Shown piece after piece: positions 11,377-38,698 of a stretch of DNA of 64,000 nt. The DNA is from Escherichia coli (GTDB lineage Bacteria; Pseudomonadota; Gammaproteobacteria; Enterobacterales; Enterobacteriaceae), in the NCBI RefSeq assembly GCF_965641715.1, contig NZ_OZ282453.1, one strand, 5' to 3'. The notes under the pieces are model-generated. The model did no database searches, had not been told where the DNA came from, and worked only from the letters and a program-made list of their open reading frames with translations. Both the position numbers and the translations under genes were made by a program. Position 1 is the stretch's first letter. Each line of letters begins with the position of its first letter.

Positions 11377-11716
11377 GCTCGTCCTCTTCCTCTGTTTCCG
11401 GTGGATTTCTGCGGCGACTTACCGGGTCAAAACCCAGCAAAGAAGCCATTTTGATCATTATTCTTTCAGCGTCAGCCTTTGCGCTCAGGGCGGGGTTTCT
11501 GCTCTCGCTGCCCTGACTGTTAACAATGCTGAACCCGCGCGTGGCAAGGTCTTCGACGGCTTTGCGGTATATGGAGTAGTTAACGCAATACAGCTCCAGA
11601 TTGCTCCAGTCGGCGGGGGTAAGGTCTTCCCGTCCGGAAAGCTGGCGCGATTTTTCCTTCCACTGCCTGACCGCGATTTCATCCAGGTAAGCGGGGGCTT
11701 TTGGTGGTCTTGCCAT
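11360..11716 (-). CDS. Terminase small subunit (satellite)
   Basis: Starts MARPPKAPAYLDE..; overlaps terL start; ORF track extends to 11857. Confidence 0.7.
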   Translation of the reverse strand: MARPPKAPAYLDEIAVRQWKEKSRQLSGREDLTPADWSNLELYCVNYSIYRKAVEDLATRGFSIVNSQGSESRNPALSAKADAERIMIKMASLLGFDPVSRRRNPPETEEEDELDRLA

Positions 11717-12004
11717 GTTCTTTTTTCGCCCAATTATTTTCAAAAAAATTCCCGTGCACAAAAATTTGAGGAGGCGGTCGGTGTCCGGCAGGGACGGTTT
11801 TGTCCTGAAAACCTCCCCCCCCCCCTCTGACGGCCTCACCAGCGATTGCGAAAACATTCCATGACCTCGCGGTCACGGTCGGTTAATCGCTTCGCTGTGG
11901 TGCGTTCTGTGCGCCCTGTCCTGTTGGCTTTGTGCCCTGTCTCCTGTGTCTTCCATAAGTCACGCTGCCTTATCAGTCCACGTATCAGCCTGTTTTGCTC
12001 CTGT

Positions 12005-12445
12005 TCAGTCATCATCGCCATACATCCAGTCGTTACGGTGTGCCGCCCGTTCTTCCTGCTCGCGATACATACCCGCCTTACGGTTCGCTTTCGTGGCTGG
12101 ATCTTCCCGTGTTGTCTTACGGTTATGGCACGTCTGGCACAATGCCTGGTGGTTCCACTCAGGCCAGAAGAGAACATCACCGCCGCCATTGATGGGAATG
12201 ATGTGATCCACCACAAGAGCTGGCGTATAAATCCCCTTAGCCAGACAACGCACGCATAACGGATTTTTGCTCAGGTACAGGGCGCGGTATTTGTCCCACT
12301 GTCGGGAATACCCGCGCGCGCGGCGGTGTCCCCGTCTGGCATCCTCTGCACGCCATGCAGCCCGCCTGTGATCTTCGCACTTGCCGGACTTCACGCGCTT
12401 ATTACAGCCCGGCTCAGTGCATCGCCTTAATGGTTGCCACGGCAT
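12005..12445 (-). CDS. HNH endonuclease (packaging-associated)
   Basis: Cys-rich N-terminus and HNH motif (..DHIIPINGGG..H..C..CH). Confidence 0.8.
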   Translation of the reverse strand: MPWQPLRRCTEPGCNKRVKSGKCEDHRRAAWRAEDARRGHRRARGYSRQWDKYRALYLSKNPLCVRCLAKGIYTPALVVDHIIPINGGGDVLFWPEWNHQALCQTCHNRKTTREDPATKANRKAGMYREQEERAAHRNDWMYGDDD

Positions 12446-12744
12446 CAGTACACCCCTACATCACGATAAACCGACCAGAGCGCAGAAATAGCCATAGGCA
12501 GTTCAGACTGCTCCACAGGTGAAACCGCTTCCCTGTTCTCGTACAGGAAAGCGATGTACATCAGGCAACCAACACGTATTGCCGGGGTAAATTCCAGCCC
12601 GTCTTCAAAACGTTTCCCGATATGCTTCTGGCAGGCTTCCAGCGCCGCATCGGTATACATTTTCAGAAGTTCGCCCTCACCTGAGAAGTCATCAAGGCGA
12701 AGATGTGCCCTGACTTCATCAGGTGTAATTTTTTCTTCACTCAT
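12445..12744 (-). CDS. gp6-like head-tail connector (satellite)
   Basis: MSEEKITPDEVRAHLRLDD.. N-terminus; internal ATG, ORF track start 12825. Confidence 0.55.
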   Translation of the reverse strand: MSEEKITPDEVRAHLRLDDFSGEGELLKMYTDAALEACQKHIGKRFEDGLEFTPAIRVGCLMYIAFLYENREAVSPVEQSELPMAISALWSVYRDVGVY

Positions 12745-13951
12745 CTTTTTCACCTTTAATTTCCACCGTCTGCTTCCATGCCTGGCTGAACTCGTCACCA
12801 CCTTCACGCGGCGGCATCCCCTCACGTTCGCGGGCTTCGTTCGGATTCATGATCCCGTTCTTAATCCCTTTCTCATACGTGGCGTAACGCTCGGTTGGAG
12901 TAGCGCGCAGTAAATCGGCTGAATCAAACTCAACCAGATAACGGGTACCAGGTATGGGAGAAGCCACCAGCAAAGCGGCCTTAATTTGCTGTTCGAAGTT
13001 CGCCAGCCATGGGCGCATTGTCATGGTCAGAAACGCGCGGCTTGCCTCACTGAAATTGCTGTAGGTGCTGTTGCTGTATTCCTGAAGAAAAATCGGCGAC
13101 ACGTTGAACATCCGGGCGATGTCTTCAATGGAGAAGCGACGGGAGGCCAGCCATTCTGCATCCTGGTTACTCATCCCCAGTTGCTTGTAATCCATACCCC
13201 CTTCAAGGATTGGCGTTTTTCCGGCATTTTTCGCCCCCTTGTAGCGTTCCAGGGCGTCTAATGCCTGTTTACCTTTCACGCCGTCCAGCCATTCGCCTGA
13301 CGTGATAATCCCTGCCGCCATCATGCCATCTTTCATAATGCTGGCTCCGTGACGCTGTTGAGCAAGGCCAAGCCCCAGCGCCTCACGGCAAATCGTGACA
13401 GGGGAGCGCCCCAGAAAGCCATCATCCGAGGCATAGCGGAGATGCAGAACTTCTTCCTGCAAATACGTGCGCACCGTTCCTGTATAGGGTTCGGTGATGG
13501 TATAGCGGTATTTGTGTGCGCCAGTGCGTTCCGGTACAACACACCCCGGCGCATAAGGATGAAGTGATTTTGGCTGACCGTCCCGCCCCCACTCAATAAC
13601 CGCATAGGCGTTACCGTTCAGCAGGCAGTGACGCATCATTGTGCGTTTAAACTGGTAAGGTGTCTGGCACGAATTAGGCTGCTCATTCAGCAGAATATCG
13701 ACCGGGTGACTGTCCAGCCATTCCCGCGCCTCCCTGCCCTTGTCATTGCGTACCAGATACAGATAACACGGCATCGTGGCCACCGCCTCAGCGATGACAG
13801 AAACCGCGTTCATCACAGCAGGCAATGATTCAGCCGTCCCGGCAGAAACATATTCTCCGGATCCGGTATTCGGTACGCCGGACAGCGCCAGAAAATCATC
13901 AATGGACAGGTTACGCAGATCGCTTTTTTTACGACTAAAAGGCCACCACAT
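12737..13951 (-). CDS. Portal protein (satellite, HK97 family)
   Basis: Portal-like sequence; ATG at 13951 abuts protease stop; ORF track start 14041. Confidence 0.8.
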   Translation of the reverse strand: MWWPFSRKKSDLRNLSIDDFLALSGVPNTGSGEYVSAGTAESLPAVMNAVSVIAEAVATMPCYLYLVRNDKGREAREWLDSHPVDILLNEQPNSCQTPYQFKRTMMRHCLLNGNAYAVIEWGRDGQPKSLHPYAPGCVVPERTGAHKYRYTITEPYTGTVRTYLQEEVLHLRYASDDGFLGRSPVTICREALGLGLAQQRHGASIMKDGMMAAGIITSGEWLDGVKGKQALDALERYKGAKNAGKTPILEGGMDYKQLGMSNQDAEWLASRRFSIEDIARMFNVSPIFLQEYSNSTYSNFSEASRAFLTMTMRPWLANFEQQIKAALLVASPIPGTRYLVEFDSADLLRATPTERYATYEKGIKNGIMNPNEAREREGMPPREGGDEFSQAWKQTVEIKGEKDE

Positions 13952-13952
13952 A

Positions 13953-14513
13953 TCACAACCCCGCCAGTTCAGCCCAGCGATGACGATTATTTCCTGTCGG
14001 GCGTAATTCAGGGTGCTGTGCAAACAACGAACGGTGGGCAATCTCCACGCCGGATTCGGGATAAGCAGGCATCGACGTTATCGTGATTTCACGGAGTTCT
14101 GCGGCGGTAACAGTGCGCAGATACGGTTTTTGCGCGATATTCCACTCTTCGCATAATGCGCGAAAGCCAAAGCTCATTCCTGTAATGTCGCCACGCTCCA
14201 CCAGCGTAAGCACATCTTTTCCAAGCTGGGTATCAGGCGGTGTCAGTTCAAAACGTAGCCCGGTGTTGTCCTCAGTCAGTACCAGTGTTCCGGATTTGGT
14301 GCGCCCCAGCAGTCGGGTATAGTCATGCTCATACAGGCAGCGCACATCATTACCCGCCGCCAGATAGTCAGCAAAAGCCCCCGGCGTGAACTGTTCGCGG
14401 AATTCGTCCCAGATAATTTCTGAAAGGCTGTTCCAGCGAACGGCATACCCCACCAGCTTTTTATTGCTGGCGGTCAGTTCAGATGTGCGGATTTCAAAAT
14501 CGGTGTTTTTCAT
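13953..14513 (-). CDS. Prohead protease (satellite)
   Basis: 186 aa, ..GYAVRWNS.. region matching HK97 protease pattern. Confidence 0.8.
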   Translation of the reverse strand: MKNTDFEIRTSELTASNKKLVGYAVRWNSLSEIIWDEFREQFTPGAFADYLAAGNDVRCLYEHDYTRLLGRTKSGTLVLTEDNTGLRFELTPPDTQLGKDVLTLVERGDITGMSFGFRALCEEWNIAQKPYLRTVTAAELREITITSMPAYPESGVEIAHRSLFAQHPELRPTGNNRHRWAELAGL

Positions 14514-14567
14514 CGGTGTACTCCATAAAGCTGAAAAAGGAGGCCGCAGCCTCCTCCTTACTCATGA

Positions 14568-15737
14568 CTAGCCAGCTTTCATTTCCAGAATTTTGATGGC
14601 GTTTGAATCCACCACACCACCGCCCAGATATTTATCCGTGTGGACCTTGTAGAATCCGGGCTCAGTAATGTTGTCCGGTCGGGTGCGAATCCCTGTTACA
14701 TGATCAACGATGAAATAACCACGACTGAAATCGCCAACCGCTAGCGGTGCTTTTCCTGCGCCGATGTCCGGCATGGACTCCAGGCAGAAAACAGGACGAC
14801 CAAGCAACATATCCGGCGCACCTTCTTTAAGGCTGTCGCGCCAGATATAATCGCCATTCTCATTTTTCAGCTTCTGTAGTGTCCCTGCCGTGCCCGAGTT
14901 CATCACCCAGACGGCATTTTTGCGGTATTTCGCTTTCAGCTTGTAGAGAATGTCGATCAGTTCGTCCGCTGTAATGGCGGTTCCACTTGCCGCTACCACT
15001 TTTTCAATGGTGCCAAAAGCGCGGGTTTTGTCACTGGTCGCCGCACGGGTGTAAGCCATGAAGCCTTTCGGCTTGCCGTTACCGTCGCCATTAACAAAAT
15101 CATCCTCTTCGGTGCTGGCGAACGTGTCGGCAATTTCGGAGGATAACCAGCCCAGAATATCCACCTCTGAAAAATCCAGGATTTCCTGCGTGGTTTTCGG
15201 GTAGGCGTAGATCGGATTCAGCTTGATGGTTACACGTTCAATTTTCGGGGTGTTGGTTTCACTACGTGCGCAGCCTTCTGTGCCTCGTCCTACAGTTGCG
15301 CCGCCAGTGGAAACCAGTTTCTGAAACTCATTTGATTTTGCGGTCTTCACGGTCGCGATCACGCGCATAACACTGTCATCCTGTAGCTGGCGCATGACTT
15401 CGCGATCAAGCTCAGGAATTACGGTATATCCGCCATCCCTGCCGCTGTCAGTGCTGGTGGACAGTGATCGCACATCTCCGGTTACGATGTAGTTACGCAA
15501 TTCATCAGATGATAATTTCTGGATGCCCGTTCCTGGCTTGCTGCGTTCTTCATCAGCCACAGACTCGAGGCGGTAAATTTCTGTGTCGAGGGAATCGGCT
15601 TTTGCACGCAGTTCATCAAACTGTTTGCCCTCGTCATCGTTCAGGCTGCGGTTTTCACTGTCGGCTTTTTCCAGCAGGGATCGCATCTGGTTTTTCAGGG
15701 CGGTTTTTTGCTGGCGGAGTTCGATTAATTTCTTCAT
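14568..15737 (-). CDS. Major capsid protein (satellite, HK97 fold)
   Basis: 389 aa, coiled N-terminal segment, homologous architecture to 5176..6381. Confidence 0.85.
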   Translation of the reverse strand: MKKLIELRQQKTALKNQMRSLLEKADSENRSLNDDEGKQFDELRAKADSLDTEIYRLESVADEERSKPGTGIQKLSSDELRNYIVTGDVRSLSTSTDSGRDGGYTVIPELDREVMRQLQDDSVMRVIATVKTAKSNEFQKLVSTGGATVGRGTEGCARSETNTPKIERVTIKLNPIYAYPKTTQEILDFSEVDILGWLSSEIADTFASTEEDDFVNGDGNGKPKGFMAYTRAATSDKTRAFGTIEKVVAASGTAITADELIDILYKLKAKYRKNAVWVMNSGTAGTLQKLKNENGDYIWRDSLKEGAPDMLLGRPVFCLESMPDIGAGKAPLAVGDFSRGYFIVDHVTGIRTRPDNITEPGFYKVHTDKYLGGGVVDSNAIKILEMKAG

Positions 15738-15974
15738 GAAGGTTTTCTCGTATTGGTTAAGATTCAGGACGTGAAACCAACACGGAGGGAGCGCCGCCCG
15801 ACACTCTCGGCATCTCGCAGATCAACCCGGCATCGCGCAGGGGGTCAGGCGGCATTGTGGCGGCTCACGTCTGAGTGCCACACGCCAACATATACATAAA
15901 AATCAGTATGTAAACATCAGCCAGAATCACCGAACAACCTGGAACAACCACGAACAAATAATTTACAAAACCTG

Positions 15975-16000
15975 AAAAAAAGACCTGGAGAAAATCCAGG
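15975..16000 (-). terminator. Intrinsic terminator upstream of satellite capsid operon
   Basis: Hairpin cctgga/tccagg followed by T-run on minus strand, directly after ORF 16012..16260. Confidence 0.5.
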
Positions 16001-16011
16001 CCTTTATCGCT

Positions 16012-16260
16012 TTATTGTTTCACTGGATCCCGCATTCTGCGTCTTATTTTCCACAGATATTCGATCATCGCTTCCACCTGCTCACGATTGGTTGCGAAAA
16101 TTTCCCCGGTCAGTGAGCTGCGCAGAAAATCATGATGATCCACAACAAACAACGCATCGGAAGAAAGCAGACGGCGATATTTTTTTGCTGTCGTGGTTTC
16201 CAGATCATCAAAACCATGAAACTTTTTATGTTGCTGGACTTCTTCAAATGTCACTGGCAT
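16012..16260 (-). CDS. Hypothetical protein
   Basis: 82 aa ORF, 4-nt overlap with upstream ProQ-like gene. Confidence 0.4.
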   Translation of the reverse strand: MPVTFEEVQQHKKFHGFDDLETTTAKKYRRLLSSDALFVVDHHDFLRSSLTGEIFATNREQVEAMIEYLWKIRRRMRDPVKQ

Positions 16261-16793
16261 GTATCCCCCTTTGCCGCCCGGCGCTGGCGCTTGTGCTTCT
16301 CATTCAGCGCCATCAGCCGCGTTTCTGCCTCCTGCTGTTCCTGTGGTGTCACTTCCCCACATGGCTGGCCTTTCAGGTCGTATCGTACCCCACCAGCAAC
16401 CAGGGCGCGGTAATAGCGCGGAGACTGCGCATAAGATGCCAGCGTCGCACGTAATGCCCCCGGCCCGAATGCCAGCCCCCTGACGGCGAGATCCTGCATC
16501 AGGTCGTCGAATATCCCCACCTTAAGCGGCTTCGGTGCTTCCCTGTTGAATAAGTCAGGCCACATCTCAGTGAGGCGGTTAACGCGCCTGCGGTTTTTGC
16601 GCTGGCGTTTGGTCATATGCCGCCACGGTGTCACCCCTGTGGGCTGCCCTTTGCGGCTCTGCTGTGCGTTCTGATTGCCGGGTATCACTTTATGCGCCGA
16701 TGTGGTTTTATCCCGCTCTTGCGCCGCCTGCGTCGTTTTCTGCGGCGTGCCGTAAATGCCTTTCGGTTTTCGGTTAATGGTCAGCTTTGTCAT
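16251..16793 (-). CDS. ProQ/FinO-domain RNA-binding protein with basic N-terminal extension
   Basis: ..PLKVGIFDDL..RATLASYAQSPRYYRAL..RYDLKGQPCGEV.. parallels ProQ N-terminal domain. Confidence 0.6.
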   Translation of the reverse strand: MTKLTINRKPKGIYGTPQKTTQAAQERDKTTSAHKVIPGNQNAQQSRKGQPTGVTPWRHMTKRQRKNRRRVNRLTEMWPDLFNREAPKPLKVGIFDDLMQDLAVRGLAFGPGALRATLASYAQSPRYYRALVAGGVRYDLKGQPCGEVTPQEQQEAETRLMALNEKHKRQRRAAKGDTCQ

Positions 16794-16957
16794 GCCTTCC
16801 CCTGTAATTACTCTGTTCGCTGTTGTGAATTAAAACGGTATGTTATCCCCGTACAGGTCATCGTGCTGGCCTGTCTGTTGTTTTGCCCTGTTCAGTGCGT
16901 CAGTGGCCTGCCCCTGTTGGCCTTTTTTGCCGCCCGGTCGCGCCGTTCTCGCACTGA

Positions 16958-17254
16958 TTACGCTGTCTGCGATGACCTGCCAGCCCTGCCGCGTTTCGCC
17001 GTTCTGCCCTGTCCACTGCTTACCTGCATGTTACCCGCCACGCTCACCAGTTCGCCTTTGCGGTGTTTTGCCAGTGCGTCGGCCTGTCTGCCAAACGCCA
17101 GGACGGATAACCACATCGTCGCCGTTCCGTCATCTGCCTGGCTGCATGGCAGGGGAACCGCCATACTCGCCATCGCCATTTGTGTTCCCTTGCTGGTGGT
17201 CTTTAACTGCGGGTCAGCCACCAGCCGCCCGTAAGCCGCTATCTGTGCTGTCAT
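16958..17254 (-). CDS. SSB-like OB-fold protein (tentative)
   Basis: 98 aa, ..GRLVADPQLKTT..TATMWLSVLAFGRQA..KGELVSVAG.. resembles short phage SSBs. Confidence 0.35.
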   Translation of the reverse strand: MTAQIAAYGRLVADPQLKTTSKGTQMAMASMAVPLPCSQADDGTATMWLSVLAFGRQADALAKHRKGELVSVAGNMQVSSGQGRTAKRGRAGRSSQTA

Positions 17255-17318
17255 GCTGTCTGCTCTCCGGTTTTAACGTTGATGGTTACGCTTGTTTACA
17301 CCCTTACGGTGAAATTCT

Positions 17319-17441
17319 GCGGGTTATAATCGCACTTTTGCGGGTTATAACTGCCGTTTTGCGGGTTACGTGCGGGTTATTGATTTCCTTTTTATTCATA
17401 CAGTTAATGCACTTATATACATGATAACCCGCATAACCCGC
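17319..17441. repeat. Iteron cluster, candidate satellite origin (4 direct GCGGGTTAT + 2 inverted, AT-rich centre)
   Basis: Immediately downstream of primase/helicase gene. Confidence 0.6.
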
Positions 17442-17464
17442 AACTTTTCACCTCACACAGGGGG

Positions 17465-19588
17465 TTAATCTTCTGCCTCAGGCTGGAACATCAGCACGTA
17501 AAAAACATGCTGCTTCCCCCCAATTTTGCCGAGCGCCTTTTTCTTGTAACGGCGATCGTTACCCGCTTCCAGCATTCCGGCAGCACTCAACGCGCGGGCA
17601 AAGTGAGACGGATTAAATCCCTGTGCTATCTCACCCTCAAATACATGCGGGAACGTGTAAAAACGGAACTCGTCATCTTCGTTTCTGATACTCCCCTTTC
17701 TGTATCCGGCAAGTTCTTTAATCGATAAATCACGCTCGTCGGTATTGGGCCACGGAAGGTATCTGCTGAATCCGAACGACGCTAAAAAAGCTTCTGCCTG
17801 TTCAACCATCTGTTTAAATTCCCTGTTACCCGTGCCGAACTCCTTCACCCAGGCATTAAAATTATGCTGTATGGCATCGCGGCATTCCTGCTCATCCCAG
17901 CCAGTAACATGACCTGAAAGCACAAGCGCGGCCTCCAGTATGGCAAATCGCTCCCCCACACGGTGAACCTGTTCGCCGTAGCTCTCCGGTATCAGGTTGC
18001 GCCACCGCTCACGGCATGTCCTTACCGTGTCCTTTGCCTCCTGCTGGTGTTCTGCCAGCCATTTAACCCACTCACGACCCGCCGCCCCGTGATTTTCTGT
18101 CCAGGCATCCTTTAACGCGTCTGCGTGCGCCTTTCCGGTGCTGTATTCGTGAAATTGCGTGGCTTTTTCCATCGGAACGTTAAGCAGGCGGACAAGCTGC
18201 CCCGCTTTGACTTTTATCCCCTCCGTTTTGAGGAATGTCTCAACGTCCATTTCTCCGGTGCTGATTGCCACCGTGCGCCAGTGTTTGATCTCCCTGTTGC
18301 CGCCGTCCTTCGCCCCCTGTAATTTCCCCGAACCGTTAAACAGCGTATAGGCTGACGTGGACACCTCCCGCGCGTTTCCGGCCTGGCCTATTTCATCCAG
18401 GGGTAAAAGCCCGTCATTGTGTGCCTCTGCTTCGTTGGCGATACCTAACGCTGTGCCGTACCAGGTCAGCCGCTGCGCGTCCGGCTCTCCCCATAAACTT
18501 GATGCGATGTTCTGTGTGGTGGTTTTCCCTGCCGATGACTGTTCGAAAAGATGTACCCCGAAGCCGTCAGCGCCCACCAGCCCGATTAATGGTGCGGATA
18601 ACGATACCGCCACACCCAGCATCATGGACGGATTACCACCAGCCAGCCGCGCAACGGTATCGCGCCAGCCCTCCGCCGTTCCTGCCACGGAATAGCCATT
18701 AACAGCAGCCGTTTTTCCGGTAAACAGGACTGGCTTTTCGCAATCACCAATGACCGAACCGTCCGGCATGATGTACGCGCCAAAATGCCAGCCCGTTGTT
18801 GTGCTTAACTGCCATTCCTCATGGCTTCCGCTTAACTGCATCCAGTCAGCCAGGATAGCCCTGTATTTACCGTTGGTTGTTACGTTCAGTCCGTGGTCTT
18901 TCAGCAACCGCCAGCCGTCACGGTCGCCAATGCCACCGCACGGAACCGCCATTGTGATGACTTCATGGTTTGCTAATTTTTTCCAGCGCATCACGCGGTA
19001 ATGCTCTTTACCGATTGTCCCCGTTCCCAGTAGTTCAAGCGGGGAACATAACCACGTCTCAGGCCGGATAATTTCGCCTGACTGCTTATCCACTTTTGGC
19101 GTTACCCAGAAAACACCATCGGCGCGACTTTCAACGCGGGGCTTTAATTCATCATCGCCCTGGATTTCTGTGATTTTTTTCTTTAAGGGCAACACCAGAC
19201 TTTCCCCGCGCTCGTATTCGTCTTTGAGGCGAGGCAACTGGTCGGATAAATCCGCCGGGCTGATGTCAGTTATCCCCGCGTATTCGTATACGGTCTTCAC
19301 GCCAGCCACAGCCAGCAACGTGACGATCTGTGTAAGGCTACGTTCAGTGATGTGCCCTGCGCGGTAAACACGCACACACTGACGGCTATCATCAATAATT
19401 TGATAACCGGTAATATCTTTCAGGTGTTCATCTGACAGAACGACAGGCGGCACATTGTCGGCGGCAATATGCTTACCTGCCCATTCCTGCCACTCTTTCG
19501 CATGGCTCCACGCATCACTACCCGCAAAGATGATAACCTCCGTCATTTTGTCGGCTGGCTGGTGCTTTAAGTTTGGTGCGCGCTTCAT
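17465..19588 (-). CDS. Primase/helicase-type replication protein
   Basis: 707 aa with Walker A (SSAGKTT), P4-alpha/PICI pri-rep-like position next to iterons. Confidence 0.65.
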   Translation of the reverse strand: MKRAPNLKHQPADKMTEVIIFAGSDAWSHAKEWQEWAGKHIAADNVPPVVLSDEHLKDITGYQIIDDSRQCVRVYRAGHITERSLTQIVTLLAVAGVKTVYEYAGITDISPADLSDQLPRLKDEYERGESLVLPLKKKITEIQGDDELKPRVESRADGVFWVTPKVDKQSGEIIRPETWLCSPLELLGTGTIGKEHYRVMRWKKLANHEVITMAVPCGGIGDRDGWRLLKDHGLNVTTNGKYRAILADWMQLSGSHEEWQLSTTTGWHFGAYIMPDGSVIGDCEKPVLFTGKTAAVNGYSVAGTAEGWRDTVARLAGGNPSMMLGVAVSLSAPLIGLVGADGFGVHLFEQSSAGKTTTQNIASSLWGEPDAQRLTWYGTALGIANEAEAHNDGLLPLDEIGQAGNAREVSTSAYTLFNGSGKLQGAKDGGNREIKHWRTVAISTGEMDVETFLKTEGIKVKAGQLVRLLNVPMEKATQFHEYSTGKAHADALKDAWTENHGAAGREWVKWLAEHQQEAKDTVRTCRERWRNLIPESYGEQVHRVGERFAILEAALVLSGHVTGWDEQECRDAIQHNFNAWVKEFGTGNREFKQMVEQAEAFLASFGFSRYLPWPNTDERDLSIKELAGYRKGSIRNEDDEFRFYTFPHVFEGEIAQGFNPSHFARALSAAGMLEAGNDRRYKKKALGKIGGKQHVFYVLMFQPEAED

Positions 19589-19899
19589 TTTGCCTTTCCC
19601 CGTTCACGAATAATTTCACGTACTGCCTTAATGCGTTCCATTCCTGTAACGCGCATGATTCTGTCGATGTCGCTTAATTCTGCTGGTGGTGCTTTACTTA
19701 CCAAGGTGAACTCCCTGTCAAAGCGCATATGTGACGACACGCAGGGATGCGCATAACCTTCGCGGATATAGGTCACACGAAAATCATCGACGGTTTTGAT
19801 CGTTATCGTGCTGCCGTATTTATCCTGGAAAATATCGCCGGGGCGGATTTCAGGCCGAGCGGGGCCGCTGGCAGTAAAGCCAGAATTTTTCTTTTTCAT
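19585..19899 (-). CDS. Hypothetical protein
   Basis: 104 aa, 4-nt overlap with primase gene. Confidence 0.4.
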   Translation of the reverse strand: MKKKNSGFTASGPARPEIRPGDIFQDKYGSTITIKTVDDFRVTYIREGYAHPCVSSHMRFDREFTLVSKAPPAELSDIDRIMRVTGMERIKAVREIIRERGKAK

Positions 19900-19904
19900 G
19901 TTTT

Positions 19905-20153
19905 TTACTCCAGAGGCAGCTTTTTAGCGGCGAGCTCAATATCAGATGTCAGAGAAACCTGTGTATTTGCCAGGTCTAACAACAAAGAAATAAGAATTTC
20001 TTCTCTGCTATCGGATTTATCGGTGCTAAGGCTGTTCATCCACATATTGACGACTTCCCTGATTTTTTTCGCAGAGTGCAGGGCTTCAAATGCCAGGTCT
20101 TCAATATCATGTTTATTTCGCATAATCGCCCCCGCCATTTTCACAATCAGCAA
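19905..20153 (-). CDS. Hypothetical protein
   Basis: 82 aa ORF in early leftward operon. Confidence 0.3.
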   Translation of the reverse strand: MLIVKMAGAIMRNKHDIEDLAFEALHSAKKIREVVNMWMNSLSTDKSDSREEILISLLLDLANTQVSLTSDIELAAKKLPLE

Positions 20154-20358
20154 TCAGGATGGCTTTTGCCTCATTCAGCGCCATATCAGCACTAAATTGC
20201 ATAACAGCCAGTGAGTGAGGAACGAAAGCCCCGGCATATTCTGTTTCGCTGGTGGCGTGCTTATGCGCCTTGTCTGCGATAACAGAAATATCAATCAGCG
20301 CGTGCATCAGCGTTTTGATGGCTTCGGCGGCTGCGTCCGGACGGGTGTTATTGCACAT
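20113..20358 (-). CDS. Hypothetical protein
   Basis: 81 aa ORF, first gene of leftward operon. Confidence 0.3.
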   Translation of the reverse strand: MCNNTRPDAAAEAIKTLMHALIDISVIADKAHKHATSETEYAGAFVPHSLAVMQFSADMALNEAKAILIADCENGGGDYAK

Positions 20359-20651
20359 GGCGCACCTCCTGACGAATACGGGCAGCGAATACCATCACGC
20401 AGCCAGCCGGGGATTGCTGGCGTGCTTCCTGTTCGCTAGTGGCCTCAATGGTAATCACACGCGGTTGTGCCGTGCTCAGGGCGATAAAACGCCAGATGTA
20501 TTTATTCAGGTTGTGCGAGTCCCGCCCTTGCGGGTGTGTGGTATGATTTAACATAGCTACCTCGATAATCTTGCTATCGTTGGTGGTTAGAAGCCCGGTT
20601 AGTGTTAGCGCACTGCCGGGTTTCGTCGTTTGTATTTCAATAAAACCATTG

Positions 20652-20729
20652 GTGTGTTTCATGTTATTTTGGAGTGAAACACACGTCAAGCCTTTTTTGT
20701 ATTTCTTTTTTGTGTATACTGAAACACAC
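20652..20729. promoter_or_regulatory. Divergent promoter/operator region with three TGAAACACAC half-sites
   Basis: Perfect 10-bp inverted repeat GTGTGTTTCA..TGAAACACAC plus third copy overlapping a TATACT -10. Confidence 0.45.
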
Positions 20730-20750
20730 CAAATTTGAGGAGTTTCAGTT

Positions 20751-21056
20751 ATGGCGACTACCAACAAAAACGCTAAATCACAATTGACCACCGTCAGAGT
20801 CCCCCACGATGTTATGGAGGGCATGGAATCCGTAAAACTGGACGGCGAAAGCAACGCCGGATTCATAGTAACCGCCATGCGCGGTGAGATCGCCCGCCGC
20901 CAGGCAGAAGGAAGCGGAGAAAATCCCCTGGTTTCTTCGCTCGATGCACTGGCGCAGGTGGAAAAAATTGGAGTCAAGGCTGCCGAGGAGATCGGGCAAC
21001 TCGTCACCGTCGCGCGTGAAGAACTCCAGCGACGCAAGGTCAAAGAGCAGGAATAG
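20751..21056 (+). CDS. Ribbon-helix-helix-like regulator (tentative)
   Basis: GAGGAG RBS; N-terminal TTVRVPHDVMEGMESV..AGFIVTAMRGEI pattern. Confidence 0.45.
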   Translation: MATTNKNAKSQLTTVRVPHDVMEGMESVKLDGESNAGFIVTAMRGEIARRQAEGSGENPLVSSLDALAQVEKIGVKAAEEIGQLVTVAREELQRRKVKEQE

Positions 21057-21113
21057 CCACTATCAGCGCCATAGTTTGAGGAACGCAGGCGCATTGCTTT
21101 ACAGGACAGCACC

Positions 21114-21293
21114 ATGAGCGACACAGAATCAACCAAAACACCATCACCAACTCGTAAGAGACGACGCAAAAATATAGCGCATGAACATGAATCAGAAAGA
21201 TTCGCACCTTGTTCGTTTGCTCTTGAGAAATTCCTTAAAGAGCACAGGAAAAAGCTCTCGTTGCAAACCTTGGAACGAACCAAATCTGACTGA
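21114..21293 (+). CDS. Small basic protein (59 aa)
   Basis: ORF below track cutoff, followed by two intrinsic terminators. Confidence 0.25.
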   Translation: MSDTESTKTPSPTRKRRRKNIAHEHESERFAPCSFALEKFLKEHRKKLSLQTLERTKSD

Positions 21294-21359
21294 TCACATT
21301 GCCCACCAGCCGCAAATGTGGCATTGTTGGTGATGCTTTTGTTTTCCCTTGTTCCCACT

Positions 21360-21388
21360 GGCGACCCTTTTGCGGTCGCCTTTGTTTT
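21360..21388 (+). terminator. Intrinsic terminator
   Basis: ggcgaccc tttt gcggtcgcc followed by T-rich run. Confidence 0.45.
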
Positions 21389-21483
21389 GCCTGTTATCCG
21401 GCAATAGTGGCGCTTCGTCACCTGTCTGATATAATTCCACAGCTTATATTCATTTTTTGCGCAGTAGGTTAATTGTTCGCAAG

Positions 21484-21515
21484 GGCGCTCCGGCAACGGG
21501 GCGCTTTTTGTTTTT
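21484..21515 (+). terminator. Intrinsic terminator with GCAA tetraloop
   Basis: gcgctccg GCAA cggggcgc then tttttgttttt. Confidence 0.4.
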
Positions 21516-21673
21516 ACCCACCAGCACAATAAAAATCTTCATTTTCCATTTTTGTAAAATTTCATGCTTTCCGGACGACTGGTCATATGTCATTTTTTAG
21601 CAGAAGATTTTGCCTTGCTGGTGGGTAGCTTCCCGGTCAACACGATGTACCGTATAATCAACACCGCGTGTGG

Positions 21674-22252
21674 TTACTGAATACGCTCACCAAAGTAAAA
21701 CTCAGGCTGGTATTCACGTATCAGCCTTTTTTCTTCTTCCTCCAGCTCACGCTTTTTGCGCTTACATGCCTGTAGCTCCCTCCCCTTCTCACTGGCACTT
21801 ATCTGGTATTGCTCTTTGCGGCGGGAAAAATCCTGTAATGCGCCCCACGGGATACCATAAGCCCCCGTTTTTCTGATACCCGGTATCACATTTCTGAATA
21901 CCCAGTTACTGAAACGATGAGCAAATGTGCCAGGCGTCGTTGCTTTGCGGCTGCGGGCTATTAGTTTGTAGAAACCTGACTCGGAGATAATGCTCATATT
22001 CTGATTTCCTCCGGGGGTGTAAGTTAAATTTACTCCCTTTTCGTCATCATCAAGCATCTGCAACGCCGTACGCGAATTGGTCAATTCCAGCGCAGCACAA
22101 ACATCCTTTGCAACAAACCACGGATCGCCGTTTAGATACACCACACGAACATCCACGCCATCAAAGCGCAGAACGACCAGATCACGAATATCACAGAATT
22201 TTTTCACATGACGTGCGTCACCCTTGCCCGTCACGGCAATATTTTTATTCAT
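21674..22252 (-). CDS. Bro-N domain protein (antirepressor-like)
   Basis: ..FDGVDVRVVYLNGDPWFVAKDVCAALE.. matches Bro-N consensus. Confidence 0.7.
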   Translation of the reverse strand: MNKNIAVTGKGDARHVKKFCDIRDLVVLRFDGVDVRVVYLNGDPWFVAKDVCAALELTNSRTALQMLDDDEKGVNLTYTPGGNQNMSIISESGFYKLIARSRKATTPGTFAHRFSNWVFRNVIPGIRKTGAYGIPWGALQDFSRRKEQYQISASEKGRELQACKRKKRELEEEEKRLIREYQPEFYFGERIQ

Positions 22253-22309
22253 TGCTTTTTACCTCACATACAAAAAACCCCGCATTGCGTGGTGCGGGGT
22301 TGTCGGTAA

Positions 22310-22588
22310 TTACTTATTGGCGTTTTTGTATGGGCTGTTTACTTCCTTTACTCCTGGCGGATGCATAACCCACCAGAGCACATCAGAGAGCAACCAGGAA
22401 ACAGACACTTTCCCTAAATGAGCACGAGCAGGAAATGCTCCCTCCTGTTCAAGTACCCAACGTCTGCTTCTTGAAAGCCCGGTACGATTGGCACACTCAT
22501 GTTCGCGTATACGGCGATCATACGGTTCGCCATGATCTTTCAGAATCTGAATGCGTTCTTCGGGTGTAGGATAAATAAATTTTTGCAT
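22310..22588 (-). CDS. AlpA-family regulator / excisionase-like
   Basis: HECANRTGLSRSRRWVLEQEGAFP..VSWLLSDVLWWV; internal ATG, ORF track start 22618 is TTG. Confidence 0.6.
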   Translation of the reverse strand: MQKFIYPTPEERIQILKDHGEPYDRRIREHECANRTGLSRSRRWVLEQEGAFPARAHLGKVSVSWLLSDVLWWVMHPPGVKEVNSPYKNANK

Positions 22589-22651
22589 AAAAATATCACC
22601 TATAAAAAAACCCGCCAAAAGACGGGTTGATTATATCTCATTTAATTTAGC

Positions 22652-22873
22652 TCAGGGTTTCCATTCACCTTTTACCCATTCCAGCACCTCAGATAAGCGC
22701 CAGACTTTTGTTTGTGGGCCAATACATATTTTTCGTGGAAATTTTCCTTCCTTTTCAAGTAACGATCTGTGTCTCCTGCCAAGAGCGGTTAACCATGCAC
22801 ATTCATCCTCCTTAATCATCCTGTCGATTGTTTCATCATTTTCAAGTTCTTCACGCGTAACTATTTGAATCAT
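22652..22873 (-). CDS. AlpA-family regulator / excisionase-like
   Basis: DECAWLTALGRRHRSLLEKEGKFP..VWRLSEVLEWV; start uncertain (22885, 22873 or 22819). Confidence 0.6.
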   Translation of the reverse strand: MIQIVTREELENDETIDRMIKEDECAWLTALGRRHRSLLEKEGKFPRKICIGPQTKVWRLSEVLEWVKGEWKP

Positions 22874-24074
22874 TACTGTCACCACTAATTTGCTTATTCA
22901 GATAGTCGTACCACCAGTTCATAGCTTCTTTTTTTCTGTCCATATACTGGCTTCTGTTATAAACCCCGGCAACACCGCCTAATGTGTGCCCAAGCAACTG
23001 TTCAACCACATTATGTTCAAAACCATGATCACTTAGTTTTGTGGCAAACACTCTTCGCATATCATGCGCCGTCCATTTCTCCGAGTGTTTCATCCTTTTC
23101 CATGTCTTACCGATAGTTACGCTTGCCGTACACTGACGCATATCAAACCCAATCACATTTTCTTTGTTACCTGTTATTTTTTTTAACGTAACTAACCAGT
23201 TAAACATGCCATCAGGAATCGGTCTGATTATTTCCCTGCCATTTTTGCTATGATCAGCGGGAACGCGCCATAATTTCTTATCAAAATCCCACTCTACCCA
23301 GGACGACAGTAATACTTCTGACAGTCGACAACCAAAAACTACCAGGAAACGTAAAATAATTCGGTTTTCATATGATAATTCGTGATTGTCATAATCAGTA
23401 TTAATACTTCGCCATAAATCTCTGATTTCATCATCTGTTAAAACCCTGCTTCTTCGCGCAGACTTTTTTCCCACATCACAGACCTCAAGATCATCAATTT
23501 CATGACTAATCGCGTATTTTCTTACCCTACAAAATTTAAGCGCCTGTTTTGATATACGCAACAAAGCTCCGGCCTGTACAGGTGCTACTTTTTTTATTTT
23601 GTCAAAACACTTAATCCACATAGATATAGAGCAATCACTAAGTGGTACATGACCAATCACCGGATAAATATGTTTACCAAAGCACTGCCTGATATGTTCT
23701 GCTCCCCTACGCTTATCCATTGCATAATTATCAAGCCAGTATTCAAGTGCCTCACGAACGGTAACAGGTTGCAAGGTGGCTTCCCGTTCAATTTTTATCT
23801 GAATCCGTGGATCTCTGCCCTCCGCAAGCCAGGTTCGACACTGATCGCGCATCTCTCTCGCTGATTTGAGACTCAGATCAGGATATTTTCCAAGTGTCAG
23901 CCAGATGGGCGCGGTTCCCCTTCCCGCCAGTCTGTAAAAGAAAACAAAACTAACACATCCGTATTTACTGACCCGTACCGAAAGCCCGTTACCATCAGCG
24001 ATGGTTTCCTGCCTCTCACTCCTGCGCCCAAGCAGGGAACGAAGTTTTTTATCGCTCAGTTTGTTTAGCGCCAT
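22851..24074 (-). CDS. Tyrosine integrase, P4 type (satellite)
   Basis: MALNKLSDKKLRSL.. N-terminus, C-terminal HxxR..Y catalytic region; ORF track start 24110. Confidence 0.85.
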   Translation of the reverse strand: MALNKLSDKKLRSLLGRRSERQETIADGNGLSVRVSKYGCVSFVFFYRLAGRGTAPIWLTLGKYPDLSLKSAREMRDQCRTWLAEGRDPRIQIKIEREATLQPVTVREALEYWLDNYAMDKRRGAEHIRQCFGKHIYPVIGHVPLSDCSISMWIKCFDKIKKVAPVQAGALLRISKQALKFCRVRKYAISHEIDDLEVCDVGKKSARRSRVLTDDEIRDLWRSINTDYDNHELSYENRIILRFLVVFGCRLSEVLLSSWVEWDFDKKLWRVPADHSKNGREIIRPIPDGMFNWLVTLKKITGNKENVIGFDMRQCTASVTIGKTWKRMKHSEKWTAHDMRRVFATKLSDHGFEHNVVEQLLGHTLGGVAGVYNRSQYMDRKKEAMNWWYDYLNKQISGDSNDSNSYA

Positions 24075-24094
24075 GTGATTTATAACCCGTTTTT

Positions 24095-24115
24095 GCAATA
24101 CACAGTGCAATACAC
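24095..24115. repeat. Tandem GCAATACAC motifs, candidate integrase arm-type sites (right arm)
   Basis: gcaatacacagtgcaatacac just upstream of int; copy at 9271..9291. Confidence 0.4.
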
Positions 24116-24245
24116 AAATGATGAAAACAGCCAGAACCTTCCAGAAAAAACAAAAACGACGAACAAGAAAAAATCTTTTTCTTTCATTTGGTTACTAAAA
24201 AAATCAGGACAGGTCGCACTGTTGTTACGGCGTGATGTTACTTTC

Positions 24246-24259
24246 TTTGTGAAAAAATT
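24246..24259. repeat. Satellite junction core, right copy (tttgtgaaaaaatt)
   Basis: First 7 bp identical to 9189..9195; encodes ..FTK of the terL N-terminal fragment. Confidence 0.55.
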
Positions 24260-25273
24260 CACCCGCGCCGAGACCTGCTCCTTCGCCTTTTTCGCCAGAC
24301 GACGCAGATCATCCCAGCGTTTACAGATGCCCAGGCCGGGATTCGCTTTCTGCCAGACCGTTTCATCAAACGGATCATCTCCCTCATCGAGCGTGTAAAT
24401 GATCGCAAAGTAAGAGTCGTCTTTTACCGCGCCCTCCACGTCACTGTTATAGCCACGCAATACCTTAATGGCGTAATCACGCTGCTCGTAACAAATCCCT
24501 TCCTTGTTAAACCCTGCCGTGGTGATACCAAATAAAAGGGACTGCAGACGGGCACCGGTTGCCGTTTCCAGAACGTCCCACACGTCACGGGTTTTATGTG
24601 CATGCAGCTCATCAATAATGGCGCAGTGGATGTTCAGACCGTCCAGGTTGTTTGCATCCGAGGAAAGCGGTTCAAATTTTGATGCGCTCTGCTCCTGGTA
24701 GATCGCCAGCTTGTTGAAATCAAATAACCGCCCGAGTGTCGACCGGGCTTTTCTGACCATATTTTTGGCGTCTTCAAACACGATTCTGGCCTGGTCACGC
24801 GTGGTTGCGGCTGAATACACCTCAGCTCCACCTTCACCATCTGCCCCCGTCATATACAGGCCGATACCCGATGACAGAGTTGATTTTGCGTTTTTACGGG
24901 CGACTTCGTTGTACGCCGTCCGGAACCGGCGCACCATCACCGGACGTCCGCTGCCATCGCTGCGCATGACAACTTCCCCGGTCTCTTCATTCACCAGCGG
25001 AATGACAAAACCAAAAATATTAATGAGGATAAATACATGCCAGTCCATCAACTCAATGGGCTGGCCTGCCAGCGCCCCTTTTACATGAGGCACAAATTTG
25101 TAGAAATTCAGGATGTGCTGCGCACGGGGTTCACTGAAATAAATCCCCCGCTCTTCGCCGTACTTCAGATCATCAAGAAAACGCTGGCAGGCCAGACGGA
25201 CAAATTCCCCAGCAACAATTTCTCCTGCAACAACACGTTCGGCGTAGCGGATCCCGTCAGCCACTTTTGCCAT
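24253..25273 (-). pseudogene. Terminase large subunit, N-terminal ATPase fragment (gene split by satellite)
   Basis: ORF 24080..25273: first ~340 aa align to TerL N-terminus (VARKNAKST, AIIDELH), then 54 unrelated residues read into the satellite. Confidence 0.8.
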
Positions 25274-28858: not shown

Positions 28859-28935
28859 TGGTCCGCCACCGAGGACTCGAACCTCGCACCATCAACTTAG
28901 AAGGTTGATGCTCTATCCCGATGAGCTAGTGGCGG
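28859..28935 (-). tRNA. tRNA-Arg (anticodon UCU)
   Basis: Cloverleaf with acceptor CCGCCAC/GTGGCGG, anticodon loop CTTCTAA, TTCGAGT T-loop, encoded CCA. Confidence 0.8.
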
Positions 28936-28936
28936 T

Positions 28937-29012
28937 TGGTGGCCCTTGCTGGATTTGAACCAGCGACCTGGCGATTATGAGTCGCTCGCTCTCACCACTG
29001 AGCTAAAGGGCC
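28937..29012 (-). tRNA. tRNA-Ile2 (anticodon CAU, ileX/ileZ-like)
   Basis: GGCCCTTTAGCTCAGTGG..CTCATAA..GGTTCAAATCC..CCA, near-identical to E. coli ileX as recalled. Confidence 0.8.
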
Positions 29013-31330: not shown

Positions 31331-31609
31331 TTACCTCCAGATCCGTTGCTGGAATGTGCGGGACGGACGCGGTGGGCGTTCGGAGTAAGGAAGCCTGACG
31401 GAGATTATCCAGTGACGATAATCGAGGCTGAGGGCTTTCTTAATCTCGTATCCGTGTCTGCGGTAGCACTGAATTAGCCATTCAGCTTGTTCTTCAGTAC
31501 ATGGGGGATGCTGGTACCAATCAGATTTAAATGCGTGAGAGCGCCGCCCGTGCCTGCTGGCAAAGACGGCTGAATTATCAGAATTGTGTAATTTGGTATC
31601 GTGCGCCAT
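31331..31609 (-). CDS. Hypothetical protein
   Basis: Internal ATG (MAHDTKLH..); ORF track start 31738. Confidence 0.3.
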   Translation of the reverse strand: MAHDTKLHNSDNSAVFASRHGRRSHAFKSDWYQHPPCTEEQAEWLIQCYRRHGYEIKKALSLDYRHWIISVRLPYSERPPRPSRTFQQRIWR

Positions 31610-31776
31610 CGGTTGTCTCTGCTGGCGCAGCAGGTGCCAGTTGTTCAGGCTGGCGTGCGAATTGTAAACCAGAATGCCAGGAAAAAACAAAACCCGCCGA
31701 AGCGGGTTAAGTGCGGGTGCGTTGAGGATGCCTGACACATCAGAGGTGGCGAGGGATTTCTCCCCCGCCAGGTCTC

Positions 31777-31932
31777 TTACTCCTCAGGTTCGTAAGCTGT
31801 GAAGACAGCGACCCCCGTCTGGCCGGTTCGGATTCGTACCTCGCAGAGGTCTTTCCTCGTTACCAGTGCCGTCACAATGACGGTTAAACAGATGACGATC
31901 AGGGCGATTAACATCGCCTTTTGCTGCTTCAT
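31777..31932 (-). CDS. hokD: Hok-family type I toxin (HokD/RelF-like), 51 aa
   Basis: MKQQKAMLIALIVICLTVIVTALVTRKDLCEVRIRTGQT.. near-identical to HokD as recalled. Confidence 0.8.
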   Translation of the reverse strand: MKQQKAMLIALIVICLTVIVTALVTRKDLCEVRIRTGQTGVAVFTAYEPEE

Positions 31933-32185
31933 AGCCTGCTTCTCCTTGCCTTTCGGCACGTAAGAGGCTAACCTAGATTTGCCGTTCATAGATTGAGCCT
32001 CAGATTAATGTTAAGCGTCTTGCAGGACGCGTAATGTTAACTGGGGCTTTTCTCTATCTGCCTTTGGTGTTCATGCCTGAGGCAGATAGCCTCAAGCACC
32101 CGCAGCAATTCTACTTAAGTTAGATAAGCTTTTCTATGGTATTCTCTCAGCGTCCCGTAAATACAGTCTCGGCTCATCATTTTTA

Positions 32186-38645: not shown

Positions 38646-38698
38646 TTTCTGGTGACGTTTGGCGGTATCAGTTTTACTCCGTGACTGCTCTGCCGCCC
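38646..38698 (+). ncRNA. dicF: DicF small RNA (cell-division inhibitor sRNA)
   Basis: tttctggtgacgtttggcggtatcagttttactccgtgactgctctgccgccc + T-run matches DicF as recalled. Confidence 0.65.

What the first reader, a model, noticed from the sequence alone, without database searches (positions are those of the whole stretch)
31777..32100. Hok/Sok-type type I toxin locus in the prophage nin region
A 51-aa ORF essentially matches HokD/RelF as recalled (MKQQKAMLIALIVICLTVIVTALVTRKDLCEVRIRTGQT..). The upstream leader contains an extended inverted repeat (tatctgcct..aggcagata) consistent with hok mRNA fold-back and antisense control elements. It is a likely addiction or abortive-infection module carried by the helper.
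Basis: partly seen in the sequence, partly recalled or inferred. Interest (0 to 1): 0.4.

Follow-up and report, generated by a model that had tools for sequence, protein, structure and literature searches.

The report
Intact prophage mok/hok/sok toxin-antitoxin locus
This is an ordinary, complete copy of the well-known hok/sok RNA-controlled toxin-antitoxin module: the full-length version of E. coli K-12's truncated hokD and a close relative of the tested hokW-sokW of Shiga-toxin phages.

Summary
A 51-aa ORF on the minus strand (31777-31932) is 50/51 identical to K-12 HokD, and a perfect 10-bp inverted repeat lies in its leader.

[quoted passage not shown] Every canonical element is present:
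- a hok promoter
- a 418-nt mRNA whose 5' tac element pairs with a 3' fbi element
- ucb and dcb switch boxes
- an in-frame 70-aa mok frame
- a convergent 71-nt Sok antisense RNA (31981-32051, + strand) with its own promoter and terminator

Rfam RF01794 scores 111.7 bits against a cut-off of 59. The locus is 93% identical to mokW/hokW/sokW, annotated in phage 933W. The same hokW-sokW locus in prophage Sp5 was shown experimentally in 2021 to be a working toxin-antitoxin pair. At least 80% of the locus occurs in 3825 of 5426 complete E. coli genomes.

It lies in the nin-equivalent region of a lambdoid, DicF-carrying prophage. It is already known, so interest is low.

Side notes: the Sok 5' tail (mok codons 2-6) is the most variable stretch and falls into discrete classes. 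This copy carries an unusual Hok E40G substitution. A capsid-encoding satellite-like element interrupts the prophage's terminase gene.

The parts
32108..32136 (-). hok/mok promoter-like site: -35 TAGAAA (32136-32131), 17-bp spacer, -10 TAGAAT (32113-32108). The predicted start is G at 32101.
   Evidence: Consensus scan. The -10 is conserved across related loci, while sequence upstream of about 32118 differs between copies. The Rfam model begins at 32101.
31684..32101 (-). Predicted full-length mok/hok mRNA, 418 nt (nt 1 = 32101).
   Evidence: Fold of -177.4 kcal/mol, z = -6.95 against shuffles. The conserved block across 56-90 unique loci ends sharply at about 32118 and about 31684.
32090..32101 (-). 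tac (translational activator) element, mRNA nt 1-12, GGGUGCUUGAGG.
   Evidence: Pairs with fbi in the full-length fold and with ucb in the 3'-trimmed fold. Invariant in related loci.
32054..32089 (-). In the nascent 52-nt RNA an alternative hairpin (nt 3-13 / 19-29) that sequesters tac is preferred.
   Evidence: Compensatory pair 15-46 (A-U in 68, G-C in 13). First helix of the Rfam model.
32041..32049 (-). ucb (upstream complementary box), nt 53-61.
   Evidence: Pairs with the mok SD region (nt 99-106) in the full-length fold and with tac (nt 1-8) after 3' trimming.
31981..32051 (+). Sok antisense RNA gene, 71 nt: a 14-nt single-stranded 5' tail, a long hairpin and a U tail. Complementary to mRNA nt 51-121, so it covers ucb, the mok SD and the mok start.
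   Evidence: Maps onto the sokW misc_RNA annotated in phage 933W. Folds at -30 kcal/mol, z = -5.6. Takada's sokW probe YO-592 maps here. Three compensatory pairs in the hairpin.
31946..31974 (+). Sok promoter: -35 TTGCCT (31946-31951), 17-bp spacer, -10 TAACCT (31969-31974).
   Evidence: Takada et al.'s mutagenic primer YO-421, used for the sokW promoter-less construct, changes exactly this hexamer. Primer YO-597, which spans the -35 and most of the -10, matches the window 30/30 (PMC8621323). The simple consensus scan did not report it.
31777..31989 (-). mok reading frame, 70 codons, in frame with hok. Its SD is GAGG at 32000-31997.
   Evidence: ORF list. PHROG_251 'MokW-like host killing' at E=9.6e-32. 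Same layout as K-12 mokC/hokC and 933W mokW/hokW.
31964..31969 (-). dcb (downstream complementary box), nt 133-138, AGCCUC.
   Evidence: Pairs with the mok SD region (nt 101-106) only in the 3'-trimmed fold, forming the Sok-target hairpin.
31777..31932 (-). hok toxin gene, 51 aa (HokD-type, E40G allele). Its SD is GGAG at 31945-31942.
   Evidence: Pfam PF01848 at E=3.9e-22. 50/51 identical to K-12-type HokD and 40% to R1 Hok. The exact sequence is on 156 public contigs named HokD.
31715..31727 (-). fbi (fold-back inhibition) element, nt 375-387, CCUCAACGCACCC.
   Evidence: Pairs with tac in the full-length fold. Duplex of -21.5 kcal/mol, reached by 3 of 200 shuffles. Conserved even where the toxin ORF is replaced; hokC-type loci use a different sequence that is still complementary to tac.
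31684..31712 (-). Rho-independent terminator of the hok mRNA (stem 31708-31691 plus a U tract).
   Evidence: Terminator scan and fold.

Best explanation
[quoted passage not shown] It is the intact form of the locus that survives in E. coli K-12 only as the leaderless hokD (relF), and it is an allele of the mokW/hokW/sokW locus of phages 933W and Sp5.

Proposed mechanism (steps seen in sequence or folding are marked 'shown in silico'; the rest are inferred from the R1 and hokW literature):
1. A constitutive promoter makes a 418-nt mRNA from the minus strand.
2. While the RNA is being made, a 5' hairpin sequesters tac (shown in silico).
3. In the finished RNA, tac (nt 1-12) pairs with fbi (nt 375-387). 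This closes the molecule, so ucb masks the mok ribosome-binding site and the hok site is also paired. The full-length RNA is then neither translated nor bound by Sok (shown in silico).
4. Slow 3' trimming removes fbi. tac then switches to ucb, the mok site pairs with dcb to form the Sok-target hairpin with the mok start at its top, and the hok site is freed (shown in silico).
5. The short-lived 71-nt Sok RNA is made from the opposite strand and is complementary to nt 51-121. It binds this form through its single-stranded 5' tail, blocks mok translation and therefore the coupled hok translation, and the duplex is degraded (inferred).
6. When Sok synthesis stops, the stable mRNA pool yields Hok, a small inner-membrane peptide that collapses the membrane potential (inferred). 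Sok synthesis could stop on prophage induction, on loss of the prophage, or on transcription shut-off by an infecting phage.

The best-documented biological role for the closest relative is help with lysis and phage release after induction. Prophage retention and phage exclusion remain possible.
For: Toxin: Pfam HOK_GEF at E=3.9e-22; 98% identical to HokD.

Leader: Rfam RF01794 at 111.7 bits against a cut-off of 59, full model 1-157. The same model hits K-12 hokC and 933W hokW on the toxin strand and misses K-12's truncated hokD.

Layout: in-frame mok with Sok overlapping the mok start by 9 nt, exactly as annotated for mokC/hokC/sokC and mokW/hokW/sokW. The window is 93% identical to 933W over 406 bp.

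Sok promoter: identical to the sokW promoter that Takada et al. mutated experimentally.

Folding: full-length z = -6.95 with tac/fbi closure; metastable 5' hairpin; the tac/ucb and mok-SD/dcb switch after 3' trimming. This matches the published model summarised in PMC9841398.

Covariation: compensatory pairs in the 5' hairpin and in the Sok hairpin. The fbi element is retained in loci with a different toxin ORF, and hokC-type loci use an alternative fbi.

Experiments on the relative: HokW is toxic, sokW neutralises it, and the locus roughly doubles Sp5 release (PMC8621323).
Against: Nothing was measured for this copy. Transcription starts, 3' processing, Sok expression and toxicity are all inferred.

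The toxin carries E40G at a position that is Glu in every other copy I collected. Its effect is unknown.

The tac/fbi helix is almost invariant in the close set, so its covariation support is indirect.

The simple promoter scan did not call the Sok promoter; its -10 matches the consensus at only 3 of 6 positions.

Chromosomal hok loci tested in the past did not mediate post-segregational killing (cited in preprint 10.1101/2025.08.07.668861).
Confidence: 0.9

Rival explanations
1. The cassette looks intact but is functionally attenuated or silent in this genome. The E40G change weakens the toxin, and like the other chromosomal hok loci it no longer kills.
For: E40G occurs only in the window's copy among 56 and about 90 unique related loci. 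Glu is kept at this position in HokD, HokW, HokC and R1 Hok. Tested chromosomal hokA/B/C loci did not mediate post-segregational killing. The carrier prophage is already damaged by an insertion in its terminase gene.
Against: All RNA control elements are intact and conserved. Keeping a working antitoxin circuit suggests there is a toxin worth repressing. The exact E40G protein is on 156 public contigs, so it is a persisting allele rather than a one-off lesion. From memory (not checked here), toxic relatives PndA and SrnB have Val at this position.
Confidence: 0.15
2. The mechanism is the same, but the main role is abortive infection or exclusion of other phages. Host transcription shut-off by an invading lytic phage depletes Sok and triggers Hok.
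For: [quoted passage not shown]
Against: The same preprint found no enrichment of hok near defence systems. The only direct test of a prophage copy showed a benefit to the carrier phage, not defence. Nothing was tested for this copy.
Confidence: 0.2
3. The mechanism is the same, but the main role is prophage addiction: post-segregational killing of cells that lose the prophage.
For: This is the classical role of plasmid hok/sok. The 933W annotation calls mokW/hokW 'prophage maintenance'. The cassette has sharp borders and sits in varied flanks, as a selfish module would.
Against: Many genomes carry several near-identical copies (median 2, up to 11), often with an identical Sok tail (8 of 19 within-genome pairs). 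Those copies would cross-protect and defeat addiction. Chromosomal loci failed post-segregational killing tests.
Confidence: 0.25

Closest known systems
mokW/hokW/sokW of Stx2 phages 933W and Sp5 (Plunkett 1999 annotation, AF125520; Takada et al. 2021, PMC8621323)
   Same: 93% nucleotide identity over 406 bp. The gene sizes are the same (hok 51 aa, mok 70 aa in frame, sok 71 nt) and so are the relative positions. The tac, ucb, dcb and fbi elements and the Sok promoter are identical.
   Different: The Sok 5' tail and mok codons 2-6 differ (MNGKSR here, MLNTCR in hokW). The toxin C-terminus differs (FTAYEPEE versus FVDYESEK). The sequence after fbi, including the terminator, differs. The genomic position also differs: the nin region here, but near the right end of 933W.
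hokD (relF) of the E. coli K-12 Qin prophage
   Same: The toxin is the same (50/51). The 3' UTR with fbi and terminator is the same. The neighbourhood is the same: upstream of DUF968 (ydfU) and Q in a DicF-carrying lambdoid prophage.
   Different: In the K-12-type locus, homology stops about 14 nt upstream of the hok ATG, where relBE lies. The promoter, tac, ucb, mok start and sok are therefore all missing there, and RF01794 gives no hit. The window has the complete version.
mokC/hokC(gef)/sokC of the E. coli K-12 chromosome
   Same: Same architecture, including the in-frame mok and a Sok that overlaps the mok start by 9 nt. Same tac sequence and same Rfam family (118 bits).
   Different: About 70% identity overall. 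It has a shorter Sok hairpin and a different fbi sequence. It is not prophage-borne.
hok/sok (parB) of plasmid R1, the founding member
   Same: The toxin family is the same (40% identity). The mRNA element order and spacing are the same: mok start at nt 116 and hok start at nt 174 in R1 versus nt 113 and nt 170 here. The full-length to truncated refolding logic is the same.
   Different: In R1, mok is out of frame with hok; here it is in frame. The sequences are too divergent for DNA alignment. The R1-type plasmid copy I fetched had an IS150 transposase gene ending about 110 nt upstream of hok and gave no RF01794 hit, so no direct RNA comparison was possible.

Membership tests
[quoted passage not shown] | Small (about 50 aa) Hok/Gef membrane toxin | tested here: met
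   PF01848 at E=3.9e-22, 78 bits against a cut-off of 22. 98% identical to HokD and 40% to R1 Hok.
[quoted passage not shown] | Overlapping upstream mok frame to which hok translation is coupled | tested here: met
   A 70-codon ORF at 31777-31989 starts 57 nt upstream of hok. PHROG_251 MokW-like at E=9.6e-32. Same layout as mokC and mokW. The coupling itself was not testable.
[quoted passage not shown] | cis-encoded antisense Sok RNA across the mok translation start, with its own promoter and terminator | tested here: met
   31981-32051 on the + strand corresponds to the annotated sokW. The promoter hexamers are identical to the experimentally mutated sokW promoter. It has a tail-hairpin-U-tract fold, z = -5.6. 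Expression was not testable.
[quoted passage not shown] | Conserved structured hok mRNA leader (Rfam RF01794) | tested here: met
   111.7 bits against a cut-off of 59, E=1.4e-24, full-length match. The model is in the hok-sense orientation, as shown on the annotated K-12 hokC/sokC locus.
[quoted passage not shown] | Long-range 5' tac / 3' fbi pairing that locks the full-length mRNA | tested here: met
   12 bp in the minimum-energy fold. Duplex of -21.5 kcal/mol, reached by 3 of 200 shuffles. Conserved in 81 loci with only G-C to G-U changes, and retained in toxin-swapped loci.
[quoted passage not shown] | Refolding after 3' trimming: tac/ucb and mok-SD/dcb helices | tested here: met
   Predicted folds of nt 1-372, 1-365 and 1-360 all show tac(1-8)/ucb(53-59) and nt 101-106 paired with nt 133-138, with the hok SD freed. 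This is in silico only.
[quoted passage not shown] | Toxin kills or arrests the cell and Sok neutralises it | not testable with these tools
   Shown for the hokW-sokW relative, which is 93% identical at the DNA level (PMC8621323). Not shown for this E40G allele.
K-12-type hokD (relF) locus | hok ORF directly downstream of relBE, lacking its own leader, mok and sok | tested here: not met
   The window has the full leader and no relBE. It shares the toxin gene name used by NCBI annotation but not the truncated K-12 organisation.

The most novel reading that the evidence does not exclude
The 15-20 nt that encode the Sok 5' recognition tail (also mok codons 2-6, window about 31992-31973) are by far the most variable part of an otherwise highly conserved cassette. 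They fall into at least eight discrete sequence classes. These classes could be orthogonal 'specificity groups', in which each Sok silences only its own hok mRNA and the many prophage-borne copies in one cell act independently. My one test did not support selection for this: co-resident copies did not avoid sharing a class. The sample was small, though, and orthogonality itself was not tested.
Probability: 0.25. Interest if true: 0.35.

Novelty: already known. Interest (0 to 1): 0.1.

Why it matters
It matters little beyond correct annotation. Reference genomes label only the toxin ('hokD') and omit mok, the Sok RNA and the 3' control elements, so the locus can look like an orphan toxin.

The result shows that the widespread prophage 'hokD' is a complete hok/sok module, and that K-12's leaderless hokD is the exception: at least 80% of the locus is present in 3825 of 5426 genomes.

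For this prophage, it predicts a membrane-damaging peptide released when Sok transcription stops. This may affect lysis timing on induction, as shown for hokW-sokW.

Tried and rejected
1. Cross-talk avoidance. I tested whether copies in one genome avoid sharing a Sok-tail class. Of 19 within-genome pairs, 8 had identical tails, against 11.8% of between-genome pairs. There is no support for avoidance. Draft-assembly duplicates and the biased first locus set limit this test.

2. Effect of E40G. The FASTBAC-Seq paper's mutation table is not held, and its main text does not mention the equivalent R1 residue E41. The question stays unresolved.

3. R1 RNA comparison. The R1-type plasmid locus I fetched (L208) has an IS150 transposase gene ending about 110 nt upstream of hok. 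It gave no RF01794 hit and did not match my tac motif, so I made no RNA-level comparison with R1.

4. The first locus search returned only relatives 94-99% identical at the protein level, too close for covariation. A degenerate tac-motif scan gave a better set, but tac is then fixed by construction.

5. The 135-aa ORF at 31331-31738, which overlaps the hok terminator, is probably over-extended. Only its last 66 residues match a phage family, and reference genomes annotate a 279-nt gene there.

6. Coordinate slip. In one search my extract began at 32102, so the window coordinates printed there are 1 too low. The values in this report are corrected.

Full report
**What is in the sequence.** On the minus strand, 31777-31932 encodes a 51-aa peptide, MKQQKAMLIALIVICLTVIVTALVTRKDLCEVRIRTGQTGVAVFTAYEPEE. 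It matches Pfam Hok/Gef (PF01848) at E=3.9e-22. It is 50/51 identical to K-12-type HokD, the single difference being E40G, and 40% identical to plasmid R1 Hok. Repeats of this size are about ten times more frequent in the window than in Markov simulations (16 hits against 1.7), and most look like terminators. The repeat is therefore meaningful only together with the other evidence below.

**The whole cassette.** I number the mRNA from nt 1 = 32101.

- *Promoter and terminator.* A promoter-like site (TAGAAA, 17 bp, TAGAAT; 32136-32108) and a terminator (stem 31708-31691 plus U tract) bracket a predicted 418-nt transcript.
- *Rfam match.* Rfam RF01794 matches 32101-31927 at 111.7 bits (cut-off 59), covering the full model. 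That family is named 'sok', but it matches the toxin strand. On K-12 it hits the hokC/mokC strand, opposite the annotated sokC. It therefore describes the hok leader that Sok targets.
- *mok.* An in-frame 70-codon ORF (31777-31989) is the mok frame. K-12 mokC/hokC and 933W mokW/hokW have the same in-frame layout. In R1, mok is out of frame (nt 116 versus nt 174).
- *Sok.* Phage 933W carries explicit mokW, hokW and sokW annotations and is 93% identical to the window over 406 bp. The annotated sokW maps to 31981-32051 on the + strand. That 71-nt RNA folds into a 14-nt free 5' tail, a long hairpin and a U tail (-30 kcal/mol, z = -5.6).
- *Sok promoter.* The primers of Takada et al. (PMC8621323) map almost exactly onto the window. 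The primer used to destroy the sokW promoter changes the hexamer TAACCT at 31969-31974, which is identical here. TTGCCT lies 17 bp upstream, at 31946-31951.

**RNA switch.**

- *Full-length mRNA.* It folds to -177.4 kcal/mol (z = -6.95). Nt 1-12 (tac) pair with nt 375-387 (fbi) just before the terminator. Nt 54-61 (ucb) pair with the mok Shine-Dalgarno region, and the hok Shine-Dalgarno is also paired.
- *Nascent RNA.* The first 52 nt alone prefer a different hairpin (nt 3-13 with nt 19-29) that hides tac.
- *After 3' trimming.* RNAs trimmed to 372, 365 or 360 nt all refold the same way. tac pairs with ucb, and the mok Shine-Dalgarno region pairs with nt 133-138 (dcb), forming a hairpin that carries the mok start. 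The hok Shine-Dalgarno becomes free.

This is the published hok model step by step: metastable hairpin, tac/fbi lock, then tac/ucb and SD/dcb in the truncated active form (PMC9841398).

**Comparative support.** The Sok hairpin has three compensatory pairs (nt 61-99, 63-96 and 64-95). The tac/fbi helix shows only G-C to G-U changes. The fbi element is kept in loci whose toxin ORF has been replaced by a PndA-like one (L093, L115). hokC-type loci use a different fbi sequence that still pairs with the same tac. Loci that retain only the 5' leader (L145, L153, L206) have no toxin ORF and no fbi partner.

**How common, and where.** At least 80% of the 501-bp query is present in 3825 of 5426 complete E. 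coli genomes, with a median of 2 places per genome and up to 11. It is annotated only as 'hokD'. K-12-type genomes match only from about 14 nt upstream of the hok ATG onward, because relBE replaces the leader. The conserved block has sharp edges at about 32118 and about 31684, and the flanks differ between copies, so the locus behaves as a portable cassette.

In the window it sits on the same strand as the cro-like, CII-like, O-like and Ren-like genes (36046-33739), upstream of DUF968, RusA and Q (31329-29222) and two tRNAs. A cI-like repressor gene and DicF lie on the other side. That is the nin-equivalent region of a Qin/DicF-type lambdoid prophage.

**Function.** For the close relative hokW-sokW, HokW is toxic and sokW neutralises it from its own promoter. 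Mitomycin C depletes sokW and raises HokW in a RecA-dependent way, and the locus roughly doubles phage release (PMC8621323). R1 hok/sok partly excludes T4. Tested chromosomal loci did not mediate post-segregational killing. I therefore hold the RNA-level mechanism with high confidence and leave the biological role open, with induction-linked membrane damage the best documented.

One inference specific to this copy: because hok points the same way as the early rightward operon, read-through transcription on induction would run head-on into the Sok promoter. That could lower Sok. This was not tested.

**Side observations.**

- *Variable Sok tail.* Nucleotide diversity along the mRNA peaks at nt 111-130 (pi of 0.34 and 0.21), against a mean of 0.074 and 0.00-0.04 in the hok coding region (the coordinates printed there are 1 too low). 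This stretch is the Sok 5' tail and mok codons 2-6. It falls into discrete classes: MNGKSR here, and MSHKCR, MLNTCR, MLDTCR, MLYTRR, MRHIEI and others elsewhere. A test for avoidance of shared classes within genomes was negative (8 of 19 pairs identical, against 12% between genomes).
- *E40G.* The allele is unique in my locus sets, but the exact protein is on 156 public contigs.
- *Possible editing site.* A TACGAA motif lies exactly on the Tyr47 codon. A recent preprint reports A-to-I recoding of hokD at the codon aligned with HokB Cys46.

**Verdict.** The system is already known, so interest is low.

Noticed in passing
window ~9200-24100 (flanked by 8459-9184 and 24080-25273): An element of about 15 kb splits the prophage's large terminase gene. 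The N-terminal part (24080-25273) matches profile positions 169-448, and the C-terminal part (8459-9184) matches positions 449-673. The element carries an integrase (22851-24110), a BRO-N anti-repressor (21674-22252), a repressor-like gene and a P4-type primase (17465-19588). It also carries its own head module: major head protein, protease, portal, terS and terL (9715-15737). It resembles a capsid-forming PICI-type satellite inserted into the terminase gene of its potential helper.
   Followed up: partly
window 31973-31992 (mRNA nt 110-129): The Sok 5' tail (mok codons 2-6) is the diversity hotspot of the cassette (pi up to 0.34 against a mean of 0.074). It occurs in at least 8 discrete sequence classes across prophage copies. 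Copies in the same genome do not avoid sharing a class.
   Followed up: partly
window 31814 (hok codon 40): An A-to-G change gives Hok E40G. It is unique among the roughly 90 related loci I collected, yet the exact protein is on 156 public contigs. Its effect on toxicity is unknown.
   Followed up: partly
window 31789-31794: A TACGAA motif, which from memory resembles the tRNA-Arg anticodon loop recognised by TadA (not checked here), sits in frame on the Hok Tyr47 codon. A second copy lies at 31833-31838. A preprint reports A-to-I editing of hokD at the codon aligned with HokB Cys46, which would recode Tyr to Cys.
   Followed up: no
window 38647-38698 (+): A DicF small RNA matches the full Rfam model at 76.7 bits. 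In related genomes dicB and ydfABC are annotated nearby. The prophage is of the Qin/dicBF type.
   Followed up: no
window 28862-29012 (-): Two tandem tRNA genes lie just downstream of the Q antiterminator gene. The related genome EC416 annotates them as tRNA-Arg and tRNA-Ile.
   Followed up: no
L093 and L115 (IMG/VR contigs): These loci have the same hok leader (tac, 5' hairpin, Sok region) and the same fbi element. The toxin ORF, however, is replaced by a PndA-like Hok with an out-of-frame mok. This shows mosaic exchange within the cassette.
   Followed up: partly
L208 (IncF plasmid NZ_CP135459.1): An R1-identical hok gene has an IS150 transposase gene ending about 110 nt upstream, and the locus gives no RF01794 hit. 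Its leader and sok may be disrupted.
   Followed up: no
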